Shown here: positions 5,401-55,531 of the stretch, one piece after another | Numbering within the stretch: the stretch's first letter is position 1 | Layout: each line of letters starts with the position of its first letter | DNA from: Eledone cirrhosa | Taxonomy: Eukaryota | Assembly: GCA_964016885.1 (NCBI GenBank) | Contig: OZ024743.1 | Span: forward strand, 49,724,001 to 49,788,000 | Direction: 5' to 3' | Length of the DNA: 64,000 nucleotides | Translations under genes and position numbers: made by a program | Notes under the pieces: model-generated | What the model was told of the DNA's origin: nothing | Databases searched by the model: none | What the model saw: the letters and a program-made list of their open reading frames with translations, nothing else

Positions 5401-5900
5401 CGTATGTTTAATTAAAAAACATTTAGAAGACCATACGCTAGCAGTTTTAAAATAGTGACTATGTCACTTATTTCTTTTCGGCGAAAGAAGGGAGAGAAGC
5501 TGACAGTCTGTTTCACGCTGGCTGGCGTTCATCAGAGCCGCGATGGTCTTCTAAAAGTTTTTTAATTAAAGATACGGTATATTATGTATACATCGCTATT
5601 TCAGAGCACCAATCCTAATACCTAATTTTTGCTGGACCAGCAATCGCTTTGTATAAACAGCTCCTGATTATTACTGGAATTCTATAAGAATCCAGCTTCT
5701 ATAATTGTTTGCGAAAGCAGGAGAGTACGTGGTTCTGATGAACGCCAACCAGCGTGAAACAGACTGTCAGCTTCTCTCCCTTCTTTCGCCGAAAACAAGT
5801 AAGTGACATAGTCACTACTTTAAAACTGATAGCGTATGGTCTTCTAAATGTTTTTAATTAAACATACGGTATATTGCCAAATATACTATACATACATTCA
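5401..5900. mobile_element. Hammerhead-containing retrozyme-like element, head-to-head inverted arrangement
   Basis: 5401-5540 is the reverse complement of part of 5543-5900, and each arm carries a hammerhead. Homologous to 24197-24738 and, more distantly, to the 310-bp unit at 46-48 kb. Confidence 0.8.
5721..5779 (+). ncRNA. Type I hammerhead ribozyme (second copy on the minus strand at about 5492-5540)
   Basis: GGUU-CUGAUGA-ACGC(CAACCA)GCGU-GAAA-CAG(A)CUG-UC|AGCU: canonical core, stems I-III and a GUC cleavage triplet. Confidence 0.85.
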
Positions 5901-15744: not shown

Positions 15745-18634
15745 TGTGTTTATTGAAAAAAACACACTTTAACCTGAAAGATCACAAATCTAACTTTAAC
15801 TCTAATCCTTCTATAAGGCTTATATGCCCTTCCAAGTCTGACATTGGCATCATTAGGCAAACATTTTTTAGATAGAATTATCCCACAATTAAGAAAACAT
15901 GTTAACTTATCACTCTGGGAAAAGACATCCCAAGTAATTAACTGGTTTACTTATATTAGAAATAAATCATCTGCTTCATTTCTACAGTTCGACATAGATG
16001 CTTATTATTCCTCTATATCACCCATACTCCTGAACAAAGCCTTGATATTCGCCAAAAATAGATCAGACTTAACTATGGATGACATCAATATTATCACGCA
16101 CGCTAGACAAACACTACTGGAGTTTCAGAAGGAACACTGGACCAGAAATACATATAGTAATCTCTTCGATATAACCTTGGGCTCTAGTGATTCCGCCCAA
16201 ATTACCGATCTTGTGGGCCTCTTTCTTCTATTTAACATTAATTCATCTTTTCCCCACCTTAAAGGTGGTTTATATCGTGATGACTGTCTTCTTCTATCCA
16301 CTAATCTTAGCCTATCAGAAATTGAAAGAAATAATAAACTTATTAGAACTTTCCTCAAAGACTATTATAATCTCACTATTACATTTGAAAACACCAGTAA
16401 AATAGTCAATTTCCTAGATATAACTTTGGACCTATCTATGGGTATCTACCAACCTTACCATAAACCTAACCTAAACTTGCATTACATACACTCACAACCC
16501 AATCACCCTAGATCTATCCTTAAAATCCTAGCATATAACATCTCACTCAGGATCTCTAACCTTTCATCAAATCAGTATGTATTCGATAAAAAACGCGTCC
16601 TTTTATAACGAAGCTTTAGCCATAAGTGGCCACAAAAACAAATTAGTATACATACCTTGCACCAATAATATTTCAAACATACAACCTAATATTACCAACA
16701 AACACCAAATGAAAAACCCACACCTAAATGCCACTCAGACTACACCTAAAAATACCAATCTAAAACTTAATTTCTCTACCTCTTCTCACATAAAATATAA
16801 TGACTTTCAAAAAACCATTTATCCTAATACTCCAACATATGCTAACAACATTACTAACACAATTCCTAGTAATCAGACTAAAACACCTAAATCAGTTAAT
16901 CAAACTAAACCTATATATATAATAAAATCACTAATAGTAACTCTCTTAGTAAGCCTCCTGATACATCGTATAAATATAAGAAACAATATCGAAACCGTAA
17001 TAGATGGGTTACTTGGCATAATGCTCCATTTAATCTACAATAATCTACAAATTAAAGACAATATCCCTAAAAAATTCTTTGCTATCATAGAGAAACTTTT
17101 CCCACCAAACCATAAATACCCTCAAATTTTAAATAGATCTACAGTCAAATTCTCCTACTCCACTACCAAAAATTTATAACAGAATATAAGTGCGTACAAC
17201 GCATATAAGTGTAAAAAACCCATAAATATACCACCAACACATCAAACCAACCATAATAATACTAAAATAAACCATAACAAACCACCATCTCCTTCACCTA
17301 TAACATGTCCTGTAAATTCCACACCAAATTTAACTAATTCACCTGATATAATATTCACGAATGGTTGTAACTGTAGAATCAAAAGAAATTGCTCATTAAA
17401 GGGAAATTGTCTTATTAATAACATAGTATATAAATGTAAAGTTAACACTAAGGACTCCACTTATTCATATATAGGAGCTACATCTAACCAATTTAAAGTA
17501 AGATTTAATACCCACAAACAGTTTTAAAAATGCCGCATACAACATCCTTGGCTGAAACAATTAATAATTATAGAAAGAAGAAAATCGATTACAACCTGAC
17601 CTGGAGCGTGCTCAAAAGGGCTACCCCTTATCAAAATAGCAGATACGAGTGTAGGTTATACTCCCAAGAACTTTTTGAAATCATGAAATCTAAGGATATC
17701 TTATTAAATAAGCGACAAGAATTAATTATATCTTGCAATCATAGAATTAGAAGAACCTTCAAATATTATAAACCTAATTAATATATACTTTACTCTTATA
17801 TTTTACAAATTGTTATAATTGTTTTTTTTTATTTAGTTAACCTATAATTAGTATTTTACTACAGAGAACTTCATATTTTTATTTCCCTCTTACAGCTCTC
17901 TTTTCCTAAAATTATTTTTAACCACACTTCTTCATTTAATCGCATCCCCTATTTATCACATTTAATACCTATGATTATTAAATATAATTAATATCTTTAA
18001 TATCATCAATGTCCGTATAGATACAATACTCTTTATAAAAAATGTTTATCTACTTCAGTTTTTCAATATATTTATTTTTTATTTTTTATTGCTTTAATTT
18101 CTTACTTCTTTATTTATCACATTCATATGAATTAATATAATTTTATCCCTGTAAGTATACCTATAAATTAATTTAATTTCCTGTTATGTATTTAGATTCC
18201 TTGTAGTTTAAATAAGATTGGTATTTCTCACTAATACCCTTACCCTAAAATATAATTTTCCTTCGTTTTTAACAATATTATTTAATAACATCAAATTTTC
18301 GTGTACCCTTCACTATCTTCTTGACTTGACCTCATTTCATCCCCATAGTATTCTTTTCATTCAAAGCATAAGTCTGCACTCCTAAACCCCTAAATTTAAT
18401 CTCTACTACTGTCATTCTATCAACTTGACCTCTAACTCATTTTCTATTGGTCAATTCAAAACCTGTTCCTAAATAGACCCTTTATATTAATTTTTTTATT
18501 AATTTATCTTGACTCTGTTTTCCTATGATTTTTATCGCAAATTTTTGAATGTATCTTCTTTTCATGATATCTTCTATATTTGGATTACATTGAGTTCTTC
18601 ATACGGATTGGACACTACCGTATATTTTGGTAGA

Positions 18635-22455: not shown

Positions 22456-23005
22456 TCAAGGTGGTTGAGTTATCGTAGGAATGTCAATCCAGTTACAGAT
22501 CAGATGTGATTTCAGGTGAGGACAACATCTGAAGATCTTGGTCTTTGAGTTCAGGCAAGCAGAAGTGGCTTTCAAGTTTTGTAAAATCCTAAATTTTTCA
22601 GTGGTACACAAAGAACAATTCTTTGTGCCCCTTTGGTATTCCCTCGAATGGTCTAAAATAGACCAATCGATAGAGTACGGGATGTTTTTATCCTTGAATT
22701 CCCACACCTTACTTGCGAAAGCCGTTGCTGTTCTTTTATCGGAGTGCTTAAAAGAAGCGACATGTGCATAAAACCTGGTTTTAAACCTGTCCCGGGTCAT
22801 GCCAAACATATCCTTCACTCCTGGCTGGCTGGTTGTTGATTAAAGGTGTCACTTTAGCCTCATATACAACGGATTTGGTGTTACATTTGCCCTGTAATGG
22901 GTATTCATCCGGCTTCCTGCAACTGCATCCTGGATTTATTCTCGTACGATTTGAATATATATATATATTGTTATCAGCAAAACATATCCCTTTAAGAAAA
23001 CCCAC
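22456..23005 (-). pseudogene. Naiad-type PLE GIY-YIG endonuclease fragment
   Basis: GCSCR..PLQGKC..VVYEAKV, FGMTRDRFKTRFYAH and WSIL..CSLCTTEK. Confidence 0.85.
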
Positions 23006-24205: not shown

Positions 24206-24733
24206 AGTATATTTGGTAATATACTGTATGTTTAATTAAAAATATTTTGAAGACTTTGCGCTATTATTTTAAAGTAGTGACTATGTCACTTACTTCTTTT
24301 TTCAGCAAAGGAAGGGAGAGAAGCTGACAGATCTGTTTCACACTGTTGGAGTTCCTCAGAGCAACGTACTCGCCGACCGCTGCCGAAAATTATAGAGGCT
24401 GGATTCTTATAGAATTCCAGTAATAATCAGGAACTGATTATACAGAGCGATTGCCGGTCCATCAAAAATTAAAAATTAGGATTGGTGCTCTGAAATAGCG
24501 ATGTATACATGAATGTATGTATAGTATATTTGGTAATATATTATATGTTTAATTAAAAACATTTTGAAGACCTTGCGCTATTTTAAATTGCTGAAAAAAG
24601 AAGTAAGTGACATAGTCACTACTTTAAAATAATAGCGCAAGGTCTTCAAAATGTTTTTAATTAAACATACAGTATATTACCAAATATACTATACATACAT
24701 TCATGTATACATCGCTATTTCAGAGCACCAACC

Positions 24734-24738
<5 letters not shown>
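24197..24738. mobile_element. Retrozyme-like element: about 1.2 units of 317 bp on the minus strand, then an inverted partial unit
   Basis: TGTATGTATAGTATATTTGG at 24197 and 24514. Hammerhead on the minus strand at 24315-24371 (CUGAGGA..GAAA-CAGAUCUG-UC). 24588-24738 is inverted, and (TA)n lies on both sides. Confidence 0.8.
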
Positions 24739-24782
<44 letters not shown>

Positions 24783-33444: not shown

Positions 33445-35322
33445 GATTGATAGAATAGTGATTGACGGAATAGCGATTGACGGAATAGTGATTGACGGAA
33501 TAGTGATTGACGGAATAGCGATTGACGGAATAGTGATTGACGGAATAGTGATTGACGGAATAGCGATTGACGGAATAGTAATTGACGGAATAGCGATTGA
33601 CGGAATAGCGATTGACGGAATAGTGATTGACGGAATAGCGATTGACGGAATAGTGATTGACGGAATAGCGATTGACGGAATAGTAATTGAAGGAATAGCG
33701 ATTGACGGAATAGCGATTGACAGAATAGTGATTGACGGAATAGCGATTGACGGAATAGTGATTGACGAAATAGCGATTGACGGAATAGCGATTGACGGAA
33801 TAGCGATTGACGGAATAGTGATTGACGGAATAGCGATTGACGGAATAGTGATTGACGGAATAGCGATTGACGGAATAGTAATTGAAGGAATAGCGATTGA
33901 CGGAATAGCGATTGACAGAATAGTGATTGACGGAATAGCGATTGACGGAATAGTGATTGACGGAATAGCGATTGACGGAATAGCGATTGACGGAATAGCG
34001 ATTGACGGAATAGCGATTGACGGAATAAGTGATTGACGGAATAGTGATTGACGGAATAGCGATTGACGGAATAGTAATTGACGGAATAGCGAATGACGGA
34101 GTAGCGATTGACGGAATAGTGATTGACAGAATAGTGATTGACGGAATAGCGATTGACGGAATAGTGATTGACGGAATAGTGATTGACGGAATAGCGATTG
34201 CCGGAATAGTGATTGACGGAATAGCGATTGACGGAATAGCGATTGACGGAATAGCGATTGACGGAATAGCGATTGACGGAATAGTGATTGACCGAATAGC
34301 GATTGACGGAATAGTGATTGAATGAATAGCGATTGACGGAATAGCGATTGACGGAATAGCGATTGACGGAGTAGCGATTGACGGAATAGTGATTGACGGA
34401 ATAGTGATTGACGGAATAGCGACTGATGGAATAGTGATTGACGGAATAGTGATTGACGGAATAGCGATTGACGGAATAGTGATTGACGAAATAGCGATTG
34501 ACGGAATAGCGATTGACGGAATAGCGATTGACGGAATAGTGATTGACGGAATAGCGATTGACGGAATAGTGATTGACGGAATAGCGATTGACGGAATAGT
34601 AATTGAAGGAATAGCGATTGACGGAATAGCGATTGACAGAATAGTGATTGACGGAATAGCGATTGACGGAATAGTGATTGACGGAATAGCGATTGACGGA
34701 ATAGCGATTGACGGAATAGCGATTGACGGAATAGCGATTGACGGAATAAGTGATTGACGGAATAGTGATTGACGGAATAGCGATTGACGGAATAGTAATT
34801 GACGGAATAGCGAATGACGGAGTAGCGATTGACGGAATAGTGATTGACGGAATAGTGATTGACGGAATAGCGATTGACGGAATAGTGATTGACGGAATAG
34901 TGATTGACGGAATAGCGATTGCCGGAATAGTGATTGACGGAATAGCGATTGACGGAATAGCGATTGACGGAATAGCGATTGACGGAATAGCGATTGACGG
35001 AATAGTGATTGACCGAATAGCGATTGACGGAATAGTGATTGAATGAATAGCGATTGACGGAATAGCGATTGACGGAATAGCGATTGACGGAGTAGCGATT
35101 GACGGAATAGTGATTGACGGAATAGTGATTGACGGAATAGCGACTGATGGAATAGTGATTGACGGAATAGTGACTGGTAGAATAGTGATTGATGGAATAG
35201 CGATTGACGGAAAAGTGATTGACGGAATAGTGATTGACGGAATAGTGATTGACGGAATAGCGATTGACGGAATAGCGATTGACGGAAAAGTGATTGACGG
35301 AATAGTGATTGGTGGAATAGTG
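33445..35322. repeat. 15-bp satellite (GATTGACGGAATAGY), about 125 units
   Basis: Direct 15-bp periodicity with few variants. Confidence 0.98.
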
Positions 35323-35534
35323 ATACTACCATGGTGATATTACCATGGTGATATTACCATGGTGATACTACCATGAAATGGATCAATAACTAGAAAGATA
35401 TTCATGATGTTGTTATTGATGTTTGTAGCGTATTGTGCTTAACTCCTTTTTATTAGTGGAACAGAAAAACAGGAGAGAGGGGGGGGGGAGAAAGAAAGGA
35501 GAAACAATATGATGGTGTATATGTATATATATAT

Positions 35535-45871: not shown

Positions 45872-45875
<4 letters not shown>

Positions 45876-46235
45876 AACGAGTAGGACCCCGACGACTGGG
45901 TTTCTTCCACCCCCTCTCCCTCTTTCTTCTACTGGCAGGTTCAGCTACCCCTTCCCTCCACAAATTGGCATGATAAAATTATTATGTCTCAACAACAAAC
46001 TTTTGACCAATCCTTGTGACAATCACTTTTACCATATATGGAATTACCCCCTGAGAAGCTCGGCTATTCAAATACCAGGATAAAAATTTTCATTTAGTCC
46101 AGAATTAGCCGTCGAAACGGCTTGAGCTCAGCCGTCGGAGTCCTACTCGTTCCTATTACCCACTCTACTACCCTAAGTATTGAGTACTTTGGTGCGTTAT
46201 GGTCCACCTGGTTCCTCACCACATTTCCTTCGTTA
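45872..46235 (+). mobile_element. (TA)n-embedded hairpin element with about 200 bp of foreign sequence in the left arm
   Basis: TAGGAACGAGTAGGACCCCGACG at 45872, with the right arm and tail at 46097-46235. Confidence 0.78.
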
Positions 46236-46246
46236 TATATATATAT

Positions 46247-48822
46247 GAATATAGACATAGAATATTCGAAAATATTCTGTATGTTTATAATAAACATTTT
46301 GAAGACCTAATCGCTATAGAATAGAATACGTCACGTATTACAATTAGATTCTCGATAAAAGCAAGGGAAGTAATCTACGCGTTTCATTCTAGTTAGAAAT
46401 CATCAGGACTACATATCCAGTGCTTTTATCGAGAATGACACAGCTAGAGACTTATAGAATACTTAGCTGTGTACAGGAACTGGTTTGAAAGAGCGGTTGC
46501 CGGTCCGGCAGAAATTAGAAATTGGAATAAATGCTCTGAAATAGCGATATATATGTGAATATAGACATAGAATATTCGAAAATATTCTGTATGTTTATAA
46601 TAAACATTTTGAAGACCTAATCGCTATAGAATAGAATACGTCACGTATTACAATTAGATTCTCGATAAAAGCAAGGGAAGTAATCTACGCGTTTCATTCT
46701 AGTTAGAAATCATCAGGACTACATATCCAGTGCTTTTATCGAGAATGACACAGCTAGAGACTTATAGAATACTTAGCTGTGTACAGGAACTGGTTTGAAA
46801 GAGCGGTTGCCGGTCCGGCAGAAATTAGAAATTGGAATAAATGCTCTGAAATAGCGATATATATGTGAATATAGACATAGAATATTCGAAAATATTCTGT
46901 ATGTTTATAATAAACATTTTGAAGACCTAATCGCTATAGAATAGAATACGTCACGTATTACAATTAGATTCTCGATAAAAGCAAGGGAAGTAATCTACGC
47001 GTTTCATTCTAGTTAGAAATCATCAGGACTACATATCCAGTGCTTTTATCGAGAATGACACAGCTAGAGACTTATAGAATACTTAGCTGTGTACAGGAAC
47101 TGGTTTGAAAGAGCGGTTGCCGGTCCGGCAGAAATTAGAAATTGGAATAAATGCTCTGAAATAGCGATATATATGTGAATATAGACATAGAATATTCGAA
47201 AATATTCTGTATGTTTATAATAAACATTTTGAAGACCTAATCGCTATAGAATAGAATACGTCACGTATTACAATTAGATTCTCGATAAAAGCAAGGGAAG
47301 TAATCTACGCGTTTCATTCTAGTTAGAAATCATCAGGACTACATATCCAGTGCTTTTATCGAGAATGACACAGCTAGAGACTTATAGAATACTTAGCTGT
47401 GTACAGGAACTGGTTTGAAAGAGCGGTTGCCGGTCCGGCAGAAATTAGAAATTGGAATAAATGCTCTGAAATAGCGATATATATGTGAATATAGACATAG
47501 AATATTCGAAAATATTCTGTATGTTTATATTCTGTATGTCTATATTCACATATATATCGCTATTTCAGAGCATTTATTCCAATTTCTAATTTCTGCCGGA
47601 CCGGCAACCGCTCTTTCAAACCAGTTCCTGTACACAGCTAAGTATTCTATAAGTCTCTAGCTGTGTCATTCTCGATAAAAGCACTGGATATGTAGTCCTG
47701 ATGATTTCTAACTAGAATGAAACGCGTAGATTACTTCCCTTGCTTTTATCGAGAATCTAATTGTAATACGTGACGTATTCTATTCTATAGCGATTAGGTC
47801 TTCAAAATGTTTATTATAAACATACAGAATATTTTCGAATATTCTATGTCTATATTCACATATATATCGCTATTTCAGAGCATTTATTCCAATTTCTAAT
47901 TTCTGCCGGACCGGCAACCGCTCTTTCAAACCAGTTCCTGTACACAGCTAAGTATTCTATAAGTCTCTAGCTGTGTCATTCTCGATAAAAGCACTGGATA
48001 TGTAGTCCTGATGATTTCTAACTAGAATGAAACGCGTAGATTACTTCCCTTGCTTTTATCGAGAATCTAATTGTAATACGTGACGTATTCTATTCTATAG
48101 CGATTAGGTCTTCAAAATGTTTATTATAAACATACAGAATATTTTCGAATATTCTATGTCTATATTCACATATATATCGCTATTTCAGAGCATTTATTCC
48201 AATTTCTAATTTCTGCCGGACCGGCAACCGCTCTTTCAAACCAGTTCCTGTACACAGCTAAGTATTCTATAAGTCTCTAGCTGTGTCATTCTCGATAAAA
48301 GCACTGGATATGTAGTCCTGATGATTTCTAACTAGAATGAAACGCGTAGATTACTTCCCTTGCTTTTATCGAGAATCTAATTGTAATACGTGACGTATTC
48401 TATTCTATAGCGATTAGGTCTTCAAAATGTTTATTATAAACATACAGAATATTTTCGAATATTCTATGTCTATATTCACATATATATCGCTATTTCAGAG
48501 CATTTATTCCAATTTCTAATTTCTGCCGGACCGGCAACCGCTCTTTCAAACCAGTTCCTGTACACAGCTAAGTATTCTATAAGTCTCTAGCTGTGTCATT
48601 CTCGATAAAAGCACTGGATATGTAGTCCTGATGATTTCTAACTAGAATGAAACGCGTAGATTACTTCCCTTGCTTTTATCGAGAATCTAATTGTAATACG
48701 TGACGTATTCTATTCTATAGCGATTAGGTCTTCAAAATGTTTATTATAAACATACAGAATATTTTCGAATATTCTATGTCTATATTCACATATATATCGC
48801 TATTTCAGAGCATTTATTCCAA
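46247..48822. mobile_element. Palindromic array of 310-bp hammerhead-containing units (retrozyme-like), about 4.1 units on each strand
   Basis: ATAGACATAG at 46251, 46561, 46871, 47181 and 47491. Inverted TATATTCACA at 47541, 47851, 48161, 48471 and 48781. Confidence 0.92.
47692..47734 (+). ncRNA. Type I hammerhead ribozyme (also 48002, 48312, 48622 on plus; 46370, 46680, 46990, 47300 on minus)
   Basis: GUAGUC-CUGAUGA-UUUCUA(AC)UAGAAU-GAAA-CGCG-UA|GAUUAC: 6-bp stem I, palindromic stem III ACGCGU and a GUA triplet. Confidence 0.88.
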
Positions 48823-48877
48823 TATATATATATATATTATTACTATTATTATATATATATATATATATTATTACTAT

Positions 48878-48913
<36 letters not shown>

Positions 48914-48918
48914 ACTAT

Positions 48919-48986
<68 letters not shown>

Positions 48987-49258: not shown

Positions 49259-49901
49259 CATACATACATATATACACACACTTGATAGATTTTATAGACA
49301 AAGCTCTAGAGCAGCTGCAGCTGTCTTGAGTCAAGAGTGTTAGACTGTTCAATGAAATGTCTACAGTCACAAGTGTTGTAATGTTTATTTGGTCAAGACA
49401 TTTGACTCTTAATTATTCATGTCAGTCTAGCTATAAACAAGAGAAGAGCAGTCAGTCATTTTAAAAGCCACAGTAGCAGTATTGTTTAATTAAATATAAC
49501 TTAGTTGTATTACTATCTTTTAATTCATAAATCTAATGTTGACACAGTAGCTGTTTGTAAACCTATATTGAAACATGGAGAAGAGGTGAGGCTGGATTTC
49601 AATGATTCTTTAAGGCTTCTTTTAACATAGAAGTTAACTGTGAATGGTAGTCTTAGGTTTTGTGTATTGGGAGAGGCATTAGTCATCTAAAAACATGTTT
49701 CAACACAAATGATCACCCAATTGACATTTATCTCAAGCAATAAATACAATGATCACCCAAATTGACATTTATCTCAAGCAATAAATACAATTACCGCTCA
49801 ATCAATATTTATCTCAAGCAATAAATACAATTATACTTTGGTAACAAAAAAACATTAATCGTGGAATGTTTTATTTTAAATATATAAGGAAGAACAACTT
49901 G

Positions 49902-50918
49902 TGGTGTAGTGTCACAATACCAATAGCAGACTGTCTCACACCCGACGGGGTGAGGGGGAGATCTCCCACCCACATTAGGGTGGTGTAGTGTCACAATACC
50001 AATAGCAGACTGTCTCACACCCGACGAGGGGAGGGGGAGATCTCCCACCCACATTAGGGTGGTGTCACAATACCAATAGCAGACTGTCTCACACCCGACG
50101 GGGGGGGGGGAGATCTCCCACCCACATTAGGGTGGTGTAGTGTCACAATACCAATAGCAGACTGTCTCACACCCGACGGGGGGAGGGGGAGATCTCCCAC
50201 CCACATTAGGGTGGTGTAGTGTCACAATACCAATAGCAGACTGTCTCACACCCGACGGGGGGAGGGGGAGATCTCCCACCCACATTAGGGTGGTGTCACA
50301 ATACCAATAGCAGACTGTCTCACACCCGACGGGGGGGGGGGGAGATCTCCCACCCACATTAGGGTGGTGTAGTGTCACAATACCAATAGCAGACTGTCTC
50401 ACACCCGACGGGGGGAGGGGGAGATCTCCCACCCACATTAGGGTGGTGTAGTGTCACAATACCAATAGCAGACTGTCTCACACCCGACGGGGGGAGGGGG
50501 AGATCTCCCACCCACATTAGGGTGGTGTAGTGTCACAATACCAATAGCAGACTGTCTCACACCCGACGGGGTGAGGGGGAGATCTCCCACCCACATTAGG
50601 GTGGTGTAGTGTCACAATACCAATAGCAGACTGTCTCACACCCGACGGGGGGGGGGGAGATCTCCCACCCACATTAGGGTGGTGTAGTGTCACAATACCA
50701 ATAGCAGACTGTCTCACACCCGACGGGGGGGGGGGGGATCTCCCACCCACATTAGGGTGGTGTAGTGTCACAATACCAATAGCAGACTGTCTCACACCCG
50801 ACGGGGGGAGGGGGAGATCTCCCACCCACATTAGGGTGGTGTAGTGTCACAATACCAACAGCAGACTGTCTCACACCCGACGGGGGGAGGGGGAGATCTC
50901 CCACCCACATTAGGGTGG
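49902..50918. repeat. Minisatellite of about 79 bp, about 13 units
   Basis: TGGTGTAGTG at 49902 and 49981. The units carry G tracts of variable length. Confidence 0.95.
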
Positions 50919-51109: not shown

Positions 51110-54100
51110 AAGTTGTATATAGTGTCACTATTAATAGCTATAGTGCCACAACAGATGTAGTGTATATAGTGTCACTATTAGTACCTATAGTACCACAATA
51201 GATCTGGTGTATATAGTGTTACTATTAACACCTATAGTACCACAATAGATCTGGTGTATATAGTGTCACTATTAATACCTTTAGTACCACAATAGATCTG
51301 GTGTATATAGTGTCACTATTAATACCTATAGTACCACAATAGATCTGGTGTATATAGTGTTACTATTAACACCTATAGTACCACAATAGATCTGGTGTAT
51401 ATAGTGTTATTACTAATACCTATAGTACCACAATAGATCTGGTGTATATAGTGTCACTACTAATACCTATAGTACCACAATAGATCTGGTGTATATGGTG
51501 TCACTACTAATACCTATAGTACCGCCATAGATCTGGTGTATATAGTGTCACTACTAATACTTATAGTACCACAATAGATCTGGTGTATATAGTGTTACTA
51601 TTAACACCTATAGTACCACAATAGATCTGGTGTATATAGTGTTACTACTAACACCTATAGCACCACAATAGATCTGGTGTATATAGTGTCACTACTAATA
51701 CTTATAGTACCACAATAGATCTGGTGTATATAGTGTTACTATTAACACCTATAGTACCACAATAGATCTGGTGTATATAGTGTCACTACTAATACTTATA
51801 GTACCACAATAGATCTGGTGTATATAGTGTTACTATTAACACCTATAGTACCACAATAGATCTGGTGTATATAGTGTTACTATTAACACCTATAGTACCA
51901 CAATAGATCTGGTGTATATAGTGTCACTATTAATACCTATAGTACCACAATAGATCTGGTGTATATAGTGTTATTACTAATACCTATAGTACCACAATAG
52001 ATCTGGTGTATATAGTGTTACTATTAATACCTATAGTACCGCCATAGATCTGGTGTATATGGTGTCACTACTAATACCTATAGTACCACAATAGATCTGG
52101 TGTATATAGTGTTACTATTAACACCTATAGTACCATAATAGATCTGGTGTATATAGTGTTACTATTAACACCTATAGTACCACAATAGATCTGGTGTATA
52201 TAGTGTTATTACTAATACCTATAGTACCACAATAGATCTGGTGTATATGGTGTCACTACTAATACCTATAGTACCGCCATAGATCTGGTGTATATAGTGT
52301 CACTACTAATACTTATAGTACCACAATAGATCTGGTGTATATAGTGTTACTATTAACACCTATAGTACCACAATAGATCTGGTGTATATAGTGTTACTAT
52401 TAACACCTATAGTACCACAATAGATCTGGTGTATATAGTGTCACTATTAATACCTATAGTACCACAATAGATCTGGTGTATATAGTGTTATTACTAATAC
52501 CTATAGTACCACAATAGATCTGGTGTATATAGTGTTACTATTAATACCTATAGTACCGCCATAGATCTGGTGTATATGGTGTCACTACTAATACCTATAG
52601 TACCACAATAGATCTGGTGTATATAGTGTCACTACTAATACCTATAGTACCACAATAGATCTGGTGTGTATAGTGTCTCTATTAATACCTTTAGTACCAC
52701 AATAGATCTGGTGTATATAGTGTCACTACTAATACCTATAGTACCACAATAGATCTGGTGTATATAGTGTTACTACTAAAACCTTTAGTACCACAATAGA
52801 TCTGGTGTATATAGTGTTACTATTAGTACCTATAGTACCACAATAGATCTGGTGTATATAGTGTCACTACTAATACCTATAGTACCACAATAGATCTGGT
52901 GTATATAGTGTTACTACTAATACCTATAGTACAACAATAGATCTGGTGTATATAGTGTCACTACTAATACCTATAGTACCACAATAGATCTGGTGTATAT
53001 AGTGTCACTACTAATACCTATAGTACCACAATAGATCTGGTGTATATAGTGTTACTACTAATACCTATAGTACAACAATAGATCTGGTGTATATAGTGTC
53101 ACTACTAATACCTATAGTACCACAATAGATCTGGTGTATATAGTGTTACTACTAATACCTATAGTACCACAATAGATCTGGTGTATATAGTGTTATTACT
53201 AATACCTATAGTACCACAATAGATCTGGTGTATATAGTGTCACTACTAATACCTATAGTACCACAATAGATCTGGTGTATATGGTGTCACTACTAATACC
53301 TATAGTACCGCCATAGATCTGGTGTATATAGTGTCACTACTAATACTTATAGTACCACAATAGATCTGGTGTATATAGTGTTACTATTAACACCTATAGT
53401 ACCACAATAGATCTGGTGTATATAGTGTTACTACTAACACCTATAGCACCACAATAGATCTGGTGTATATAGTGTCACTACTAATACTTATAGTACCACA
53501 ATAGATCTGGTGTATATAGTGTTACTATTAACACCTATAGTACCACAATAGATCTGGTGTATATAGTGTCACTACTAATACTTATAGTACCACAATAGAT
53601 CTGGTGTATATAGTGTTACTATTAACACCTATAGTACCACAATAGATCTGGTGTATATAGTGTTACTATTAACACCTATAGTACCACAATAGATCTGGTG
53701 TATATAGTGTCACTATTAATACCTATAGTACCACAATAGATCTGGTGTATATAGTGTTATTACTAATACCTATAGTACCACAATAGATCTGGTGTATATA
53801 GTGTTACTATTAATACCTATAGTACCGCCATAGATCTGGTGTATATGGTGTCACTACTAATACCTATAGTACCACAATAGATCTGGTGTATATAGTGTTA
53901 CTATTAACACCTATAGTACCATAATAGATCTGGTGTATATAGTGTTACTATTAACACCTATAGTACCACAATAGATCTGGTGTATATAGTGTTATTACTA
54001 ATACCTATAGTACCACAATAGATCTGGTGTATATGGTGTCACTACTAATACCTATAGTACCGCCATAGATCTGGTGTATATAGTGTCACTACTAATACTT

Positions 54101-55251
54101 ATAGTACCACAATAGATCTGGTGTATATAGTGTTACTATTAACACCTATAGTACCACAATAGATCTGGTGTATATAGTGTTACTATTAACACCTATAGTA
54201 CCACAATAGATCTGGTGTATATAGTGTCACTATTAATACCTATAGTACCACAATAGATCTGGTGTATATAGTGTTATTACTAATACCTATAGTACCACAA
54301 TAGATCTGGTGTATATAGTGTTACTATTAATACCTATAGTACCGCCATAGATCTGGTGTATATGGTGTCACTACTAATACCTATAGTACCACAATAGATC
54401 TGGTGTATATAGTGTCACTACTAATACCTATAGTACCACAATAGATCTGGTGTGTATAGTGTCTCTATTAATACCTTTAGTACCACAATAGATCTGGTGT
54501 ATATAGTGTCACTACTAATACCTATAGTACCACAATAGATCTGGTGTATATAGTGTTACTACTAAAACCTTTAGTACCACAATAGATCTGGTGTATATAG
54601 TGTTACTATTAGTACCTATAGTACCACAATAGATCTGGTGTATATAGTGTCACTACTAATACCTATAGTACCACAATAGATCTGGTGTATATAGTGTTAC
54701 TACTAATACCTATAGTACAACAATAGATCTGGTGTATATAGTGTCACTACTAATACCTATAGTACCACAATAGATCTGGTGTATATAGTGTCACTACTAA
54801 TACCTATAGTACCACAATAGATCTGGTGTATATAGTGTTACTACTAATACCTATAGTACAACAATAGATCTGGTGTATATAGTGTCACTACTAATACCTA
54901 TAGTACCACAATAGATCTGGTGTATATAGTGTCACTACTAATACCTATAGTACAACAATAGATCTGGTGTATATAGTGTCACTACTAATACCTATAGTAC
55001 CACAATAGATCTGGTGTATATAGTGTTACTACTAATACCTATAGTACAACAATAGATCTGGTGTATATAGTGTCACTACTAATACCTATAGTACCACAAT
55101 AGATCTGGTGTATATGGTGTCACTACTAATACCTATAGTACAACAATAGATCTGGTGTATATAGTGTTACTACTAATACCTATAGTACCACAATAGATCT
55201 GGTGTATATAGTGTTACTATTAGTACCTATAGTACCACAATAGATCTGGTG
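51110..55251. repeat. 47-bp satellite (TAGATCTGGTGTATATAGTGTYACTAYTAAYACCTATAGTACCACAA), about 88 units
   Basis: TAGATC at 51481 and 51528 gives a 47-bp period. Confidence 0.98.
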
Positions 55252-55531
55252 TTGGTAGTGGTGATAGGCTGGTGGTGGTGGTGGTGGTGGTAGTGGTGGT
55301 GGTGGTGGTGGTGGTATTGGTGGTAGTAGTGGTGGTGGTATTGGTGGTGGTGGTAGTGGTGGTGGTAGGGTGGTGGTGGTGGTGGTAGTCGTTGTGGTGG
55401 TGGTGATGATAGTGGTGGTGGTAGTGGTGGTGGTATTGGTGGTGTTGATGGTGGTAGGGTGGTGGTGGTTGTGCTGGTGCTGGTGCTGGTGGTGGTGGAG
55501 GTTGTGGTAGTGGTGTTGGTAGTAGTAGTAA

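What the first reader, a model, noticed from the sequence alone, without database searches (positions are those of the whole stretch)
46247..48822. 2.6-kb palindrome of identical 310-bp hammerhead ribozyme units (candidate young retrozyme / circular RNA source)
Seen: about 4.1 units on the minus strand joined head-to-head to about 4.1 units on the plus strand, with no differences between units that I could see. Each unit has a complete type I hammerhead with predicted cleavage after GUA (47728 in the first plus copy). The ribozyme is clamped by a 16-bp inverted repeat (ATTCTCGATAAAAGCA / TGCTTTTATCGAGAAT), and the rest of the unit is mostly hairpins (CACAGCTA..TAGCTGTG, AATACG-TGA-CGTATT, AGAATATT-TTCG-AATATTCT). 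There is no meaningful ORF, and both outer ends abut TA-rich repeats. Established: metazoan non-LTR retrozymes are tandem units of a few hundred nt with type I hammerheads that yield monomeric linear and circular RNA, and short palindromic stem III hammerheads work as dimers. Inference: this is a recently active cephalopod retrozyme copied by rolling-circle reverse transcription. Any read-through transcript would carry sense ribozymes and could also fold into about 1.3 kb of dsRNA. Caveat: stem II opens with a U-U mismatch.
Basis: partly seen in the sequence, partly recalled or inferred. Interest (0 to 1): 0.9.

Follow-up and report, generated by a model that had tools for sequence, protein, structure and literature searches.

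The report
Two-armed hammerhead retrozyme, Penelope insertion footprint
This is one of an estimated 1,500 copies of a 310-base non-coding repeat with a predicted self-cutting RNA motif that sit in TA repeats mostly as two back-to-back arrays, a footprint likely left by a Penelope-type retrotransposon enzyme copying one RNA, likely a circle, from both cut DNA ends.

Summary
Confirmed. Two arrays of identical 310-bp units (46246-47529 minus, 47535-48823 plus) are joined 5'-to-5'; each full unit has a type I hammerhead motif. The palindrome is no artefact or oddity but the family's normal insertion form: 28 of 35 loci examined are two-armed. In all 28, one arm ends near unit position 130 and the other near 165 (a one-sided 35-bp tail), mostly in (TA)n; inner junctions fall at random. 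That is the published footprint of Penelope-like elements (PLEs), and autonomous PLEs of this genome show it too. Both arms carry the same locus-specific variant (7 of 7 unbiased loci; 2 of 42 cross-locus), and passages through the ribozyme site are seamless. This points to one RNA template, most likely a monomer circle copied by rolling-circle reverse transcription from both target strands. Not shown: cleavage, RNA, circles, the partner PLE. Rfam found no hammerhead, and stem II is weak (U-U). It is a non-LTR retrozyme; the new part is genomic evidence for how retrozymes move. The scan reported this same family before on other DNA of this genome (e1-8671497), and similar ones in other genomes.

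The parts
46246..47529 (-). Left arm, 4.14 units; outer (3') end at unit position 130 ('short' end), inner (5') end at position 87
47530..47534 (.). 5'-5' junction; 5-nt insert that repeats part of the left arm's last bases (12-nt duplication 47513-47524 / 47528-47539), as a microhomology join would
   Evidence: mode of joining inferred
47535..48823 (+). Right arm, 4.16 units; inner (5') end at unit position 117, outer (3') end at position 165
48789..48823 (+). 35-bp tail (unit positions 131-165), present at this end only; lies between the two inferred reverse-transcription start sites
   Evidence: interpretation from PMC8557442 and PMC11167929
47692..47734 (+). Type I hammerhead motif, first plus copy (stem I 47692-47697/47729-47734, core 47698, stem II with U-U base, palindromic 2-bp stem III, predicted cut after 47728); repeated at 48002-48044, 48312-48354, 48622-48664
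   Evidence: activity untested
46370..46412 (-). Type I hammerhead motif, outermost minus copy; repeated at 46680-46722, 46990-47032, 47300-47342
47668..47756 (+). 16-bp clamp (47668-47683 with 47741-47756) extending stem I
   Evidence: pairing probability 0.5-1.0
47729..48038 (+). One monomer from cut site to cut site (predicted 310-nt linear/circular RNA)
   Evidence: RNA not observed
48737..48775 (+). Two adjacent hairpins just 5' of the short end (in every unit), conserved with compensatory changes in older relatives; likely part of the signal the PLE protein recognises
   Evidence: role inferred
46234..46245 (.). (TA)n target, left
48824..48980 (.). TA-rich target, right

Best explanation
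The locus is one insertion of a young, protein-free 310-nt hammerhead repeat (non-LTR retrozyme) laid down as two back-to-back arrays with a one-sided 35-bp tail in a TA repeat, likely by the reverse transcriptase/GIY-YIG endonuclease of a Penelope-like element copying a single, likely circular, monomer RNA from both cut target ends. Steps: (1) arrays are transcribed; hammerheads cut multimers, probably as dimers through the palindromic stem III, and monomers are ligated to circles (inferred from studied retrozymes); (2) a PLE protein binds the RNA near the conserved double hairpin and nicks both strands of (TA)n (inferred from the footprint and from in vitro work on PAc); (3) one DNA end primes at position ~165, the other at ~130, where the RNA's own AU run can pair with the target (ends shown, priming inferred); (4) each runs round the template a variable number of times with strand displacement (inferred); (5) the two cDNA ends, stopped at random, are joined 5'-to-5' (junctions shown).
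For: 28 of 35 family loci examined are two-armed, all minus-then-plus, and in all 28 one arm ends at 124-139 and the other at 159-172. In the first 87 Mb of C1, 36 of 45 tail ends pair head-to-head with a short end; tail+tail 0, short+short 1, so the two primings are coupled. 36 of 37 arm ends run into TA repeat. The same anatomy (inverted 5'-truncated copy, 30-40 bp one-sided tail, (TA)n target) is described for PLEs (PMC8557442, passages), and PAc extends both strands from two internal starts bounding the tail (PMC11167929, parts 1-2). Autonomous PLE families here also have two 3' ends 39-66 bp apart in (TA)n, and many have long open frames. One template: majority monomer identical in both arms in 18 of 19 loci; 7 of 7 in the position-picked set against 2 of 42 cross-locus pairs; 15 distinct majority monomers among 49 arms. 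No end to the template: 56 inner ends uniform round the unit (Rayleigh R 0.018), none within 10 nt of the cut site; 284 of 286 passages through the cut site match their locus majority.
Against: No RNA, cleavage or circle shown. No partner found: seven PLE families tested show no significant similarity to the retrozyme or its relatives, and profile scans of 90 + 30 PLE loci hit only nested retrozymes or weak matches. Rfam has no hit; stem II is marginal in the folded monomer, and a cofold of two cores gave intermolecular pairing but not the canonical double hammerhead. PAc did not need ribozyme cleavage and used unprocessed RNA, and showed no strand difference in start site (PMC11167929). Eight of nine Xenopus retrozyme dimers did not cleave in vitro (Li et al. 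2026). Four loci have mosaic arms (L033, L037, L039, L044), needing template switching, later mutation or a multimer template. 7 of 35 loci have one arm.
Confidence: 0.62

Rival explanations
1. Same PLE enzyme and twin priming, but the template is a long uncleaved linear multimer transcribed from an existing array; the ribozyme is largely idle during transposition.
For: Seamless passages and random inner ends fit equally. PAc uses unprocessed RNA (PMC11167929). Weak stem II. Mosaic arms in 4 loci.
Against: Locus-specific variants are fixed across all units of both arms (G35T 14 of 14, A20G 17 of 17), which needs repeated single-unit bottlenecks; nearly all other variants are singletons not shared between loci. 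Linear copying with 5' truncation can only shorten arrays, yet arms reach 14.5 units and one tail-to-short span equals about 28 units.
Confidence: 0.25
2. PLE machinery inserts a short two-armed copy; each arm then expands in place by slippage or unequal exchange (local amplification, as suggested by Li et al. 2026).
For: Explains homogeneity within a locus; short two-armed loci exist (L058, L061).
Against: Zero-difference loci already have 4-10 units per arm; mutations are singletons rather than runs; the older, diverged relatives sampled are short, the opposite of growth with age; arms under about one unit cannot seed a period.
Confidence: 0.08
3. A DNA-level process (extrachromosomal circle or Helitron-like rolling circle) builds the arrays, without RNA.
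For: Also gives seamless multimers from one unit.
Against: Does not explain two fixed ends 35 bp apart, the strict tail+short pairing, the match to the PLE footprint, or conserved RNA-type structure.
Confidence: 0.03
4. Fold-back read or assembly artefact.
For: No listed short-read contig bridged this junction (inconclusive in a repeat of this depth).
Against: Flanks are not mirrored; arms end at two different fixed positions; the same anatomy with different junctions recurs at 28 loci on many contigs; short-read contigs of organism A show loose TA ends at both positions.
Confidence: 0.02

Closest known systems
Metazoan non-LTR retrozymes (Cervera & de la Pena 2020, PMC7229834; Li, Clavereau & Pollet 2026, 10.64898/2026.07.22.740005)
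   Same: Non-coding tandem units of 150-450 bp, low GC, one type I hammerhead per unit, dispersed loci, PLEs in the same genome; U-U at the base of stem II as in axolotl HHR_Amex2; short palindromic stem III typical of metazoan type I hammerheads (PMC4209133, passages).
   Different: Neither main text describes inverted two-armed insertions, fixed ends or a tail (word searches). PLE mobilisation is proposed there from co-occurrence and pLTR phylogeny; here it is read from insertion anatomy. No pLTR homology found here. RNA not shown here.
Penelope-like elements, EN+ (Neptune, Poseidon, Naiad; PMC8557442) and PAc in vitro (PMC11167929)
   Same: Inverted 5'-truncated copy at the 5' end, one-sided 30-40 bp tail, (TA)n target, two internal start sites, type I hammerhead.
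   Different: No ORF; arms are many perfect units rather than partial tandems; inversion in about 80% of loci; strict one-tail-one-short pairing.
Non-autonomous Chlamys elements such as MRC1 (PMC8557442, passage)
   Same: Non-autonomous PLE passengers with multicopy head-to-tail insertions.
   Different: Those share 3' sequence with their autonomous partner; no ribozyme is mentioned for them in the passage read.
L1 twin priming (recalled, not read here)
   Same: Second target end primes on the RNA, giving a 5'-5' inversion.
   Different: In L1 the first cDNA stops near the second priming site; here inner ends are random and both arms cover the same sequence repeatedly.

Membership tests
non-LTR retrozyme | Short tandem non-coding units (150-450 bp), no LTR or ORF | tested here: met
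   310 bp, longest ATG ORF 30 aa
non-LTR retrozyme | Type I hammerhead motif in every unit | tested here: met
   Core, stems I-III by pattern in all 8 full units; stem I variants keep pairing. Rfam models did not score it
non-LTR retrozyme | Dispersed multi-locus family | tested here: met
   14,360 relaxed-core matches, 0 in control; 802 tail ends and 748 short ends on the forward strand
non-LTR retrozyme | Self-cleavage of the RNA | not testable with these tools
   Needs in vitro transcription
non-LTR retrozyme | Expressed as monomeric linear and circular RNA | tested here: inconclusive
   No RNA holder listed
PLE-mobilised element | Inverted 5'-truncated copy joined at the 5' end | tested here: met
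   28 of 35 loci
PLE-mobilised element | 30-40 bp tail at one end only | tested here: met
   35 bp; 36 tail+short pairs, 0 tail+tail
PLE-mobilised element | AT-rich / (TA)n target | tested here: met
   36 of 37 arm ends
PLE-mobilised element | Sequence shared with the pLTR of an autonomous partner | tested here: inconclusive
   Not found in 7 families; the PLE sample is partial (150 of 10,597 and 65 of 31,085 candidates scored)
autonomous PLE | RT + GIY-YIG ORF | tested here: not met
   No ORF in the unit

The most novel reading that the evidence does not exclude
Each insertion is a DNA record of double rolling-circle reverse transcription: a Penelope-type enzyme (probably a dimer) holds one ribozyme-made RNA circle, primes it at two sites 35 nt apart with the two ends of a cut TA repeat, and spins out two multimeric arms that are then joined, writing about 1,500 kilobase-scale perfect palindromes into the genome. 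A conserved double hairpin, shared by relatives that carry different hammerheads, is the portable signal that makes any small circle a substrate.
Probability: 0.5. Interest if true: 0.8.

Novelty: new variant of a known kind. Interest (0 to 1): 0.58.

Why it matters
How animal retrozymes get back into DNA is an open question: PLE reverse transcription of circular RNA has been proposed but not shown. This family gives the footprint, the two start sites, a candidate binding structure and candidate enzymes in one genome, so a direct in vitro test with an existing assay can be specified. It also bears on PLE mechanism (strict pairing of one tail and one short end; both arms from one template) and implies many perfect kilobase palindromes, potential dsRNA or cruciform sources, in a cephalopod genome. 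A PLE that writes multimers of a small circle into TA repeats would be of tool interest.

Tried and rejected
Rfam: no hammerhead; miRNA-model hits at the junction are below gathering score and reflect the palindrome. Expression: no RNA holder listed. Horizontal transfer: 20 runs under 18 organism codes hold 64-86% of the unit's words, but the four such runs laid (X2, X3, X4, X8) each hold one closed 340-base contig without flanks, a Hi-C run of organism B had 0 reads in 1,938 Mb, and two other runs of organism F had next to none; trace cross-contamination with a very high-copy repeat explains this, so it is not used as evidence for transfer or for circles. Junction confirmation by short-read contigs: inconclusive. 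Partner search: GIY-YIG family search and a protein search, 120 PLE loci scanned; hammerheads resembling this one near PLE ORFs belonged to nested small elements; one Neptune-like family has a U-U, palindromic-stem-III hammerhead in its pLTR but no significant alignment (z 0.8); best z values 2.2-2.3 among 28 tests are chance level. PF26215 is not in the library. Classical L1-type twin priming rejected: inner ends are not near position 130. Target-site duplications cannot be read in (TA)n. Arm lengths correlate only weakly (rho 0.33, p 0.09). No host gene recognised among window ORFs by eye (not scanned against Pfam).

Full report
Observation. The window holds two arrays of a 310-bp unit: 46246-47529 on the minus strand and 47535-48823 on the plus strand, joined 5'-to-5' through five extra bases. 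All units are identical; the arms mirror each other over 1254 of 1254 bp and the flanks do not. Numbering the unit from the predicted cut site (47729 = 1), the left arm ends outward at position 130, the right at 165, both in (TA)n. Each full unit has a type I hammerhead pattern: 6-bp stem I extended by a 16-bp clamp, the conserved core, a short stem II opened by U-U, and a 2-bp palindromic stem III. Rfam did not score it. Folding supports stem I and the clamp but gives stem II only about 0.1 in a circular monomer, so activity is a prediction. Precedent exists: axolotl HHR_Amex2 has the U-U and cleaves better as a dimer (PMC7229834, parts 2-4 of 6 read). U-U with a palindromic stem III recurs in several unrelated hammerheads among the loci held, and one subfamily has A-U there.

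The palindrome is the family's rule. The 3.0-Gb genome has 14,360 matches to a relaxed core pattern (1 of the 100 listed was unrelated) and 802 tail ends and 748 short ends on the forward strand alone (reverse counts are inflated by overlapping matches), so about 1,500-1,600 insertions. I examined 20 near-identical loci (top hits plus the window; 17 two-armed) and the first 16 loci by position on C1 (15 in the family, 11 two-armed). All 28 two-armed loci are 5'-to-5', with one outer end at 124-139 and the other at 159-172. In the first 87 Mb of C1, 36 of 45 tail ends pair with a short end; tail+tail occurs 0 times and short+short once. Short-read contigs of organism A show loose TA ends at both positions. 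An artefact would not do this.

This is the PLE footprint. Craig et al. 2021 (PMC8557442, passages) describe an inverted 5'-truncated copy, a 30-40 bp tail at one end and (TA)n preference for PLEs. Frangieh et al. 2024 (PMC11167929, parts 1-2 of 4) show that a PLE protein nicks and extends both strands and starts at two internal RNA sites that bound the tail. The genome has many PLEs: Neptune-like and Poseidon-like families (clade labels are my reading of the motifs), two of them 96-97% identical among copies with frames of 887-909 codons. Four of them show two 3' ends 39-66 bp apart in (TA)n, an internal control. None of seven families tested shares significant sequence with the retrozyme, so the partner is unnamed; the sample of PLE families was partial.

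One template, probably a circle. The majority monomer is identical in both arms in 18 of 19 loci with a full monomer in each; in the position-picked set 7 of 7, against 2 of 42 cross-locus pairs; 49 arms give 15 distinct majority monomers. Locus-specific variants are fixed through both arms while other differences are mostly singletons. Inner ends are spread evenly round the unit and none of 56 lies at the cut site, so the enzyme does not run off a ribozyme-cut end; 284 of 286 passages through that site are unchanged, arguing against jumps between cut monomers. A circle explains all this, and arms up to 14.5 units. An uncleaved linear multimer explains the seams but not repeated fixation, though four mosaic loci fit it or template switching (L039's innermost units come from another subfamily). 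Growth in place is least likely: zero-difference loci are already long and the older relatives sampled are short.

A candidate recognition signal. Positions about 60-165 are shared at roughly 75-80% with older families carrying different hammerheads, some with a U3-A8 core (4,544 matches to one tail motif), which end at the same tail. In 19 aligned copies two hairpins just before the short end keep 96-99% pairing, five pairs have two-sided changes, and shuffled and slid controls fall below (the copies are related, so this is not a probability).

What is not shown. No RNA run holds the unit. The single closed contigs in other organisms' runs are best read as trace contamination. A read-through transcript would form a 1.25-kb hairpin that would also sequester the ribozymes; whether two-armed loci are sources or silencing triggers is open. 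Host: molluscan hemocyanin with best matches to structures recalled as squid and octopus.

Novelty. Retrozymes, the PLE link (Li et al. 2026, parts 1 and 3 of 5 plus word search; PMC7229834 Discussion; PMC4209133 passages) and the PLE footprint are each published. Six literature searches listed no paper on two-armed, tailed retrozyme insertions, judged from listings and from word searches in the two retrozyme papers. The supplement of PMC7229834 could not be read and bioRxiv supplements are closed; either could mention it, and most subscription papers are not held. Earlier notes of this scan reached the same reading for this family and for others; my reading was recorded before that, and they are not independent evidence. 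Verdict: a real, young retrozyme; a new variant whose value is mechanistic; interest 0.58.

Noticed in passing
window 5420-5900 and 24380-24740: Two insertions of an older relative with the same tail module, both inverted pairs; the first has a different hammerhead (cores near 5535 minus and 5735 plus).
   Followed up: partly
window 45873-46233: Short element with terminal inverted repeats at 45873-46160 followed by a stretch whose 3' end resembles a Neptune-like pLTR tail; it recurs beside (TA)n at many fetched loci. The retrozyme sits in its TA run.
   Followed up: no
window ~35930 (+) and ~57167 (-): Two further unrelated type I hammerhead motifs, each also seen in other loci.
   Followed up: no
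L096, L097, L113 and relatives: Neptune-like pLTRs carry a hammerhead with a U3-A8 core instead of C3-G8.
   Followed up: partly
L187-L215: Two young Poseidon-like PLE families (96-97% identity, frames to about 900 codons) inserting in (TA)n with 41-44 bp tails; no canonical hammerhead noticed in their pLTRs by eye.
   Followed up: partly
L106 8700-9901, L174 2500-4600, L173 700-3000, L111 2590-2830: At least four more tandem or inverted hammerhead repeat families (one with a unit near 510 bp), all in TA repeats.
   Followed up: no
window 15817-17527 and 22456-22839: Degraded PLE-like RT and GIY-YIG reading frames, recognised by eye.
   Followed up: no
window 49901-50918, 51114-55252, 33445-35324: Homogeneous minisatellites (79 bp x13, 47 bp x88, 15 bp x125).
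   Followed up: no
L039 innermost units of the tail arm: Switch to a different subfamily for more than one full unit just before the junction.
   Followed up: partly
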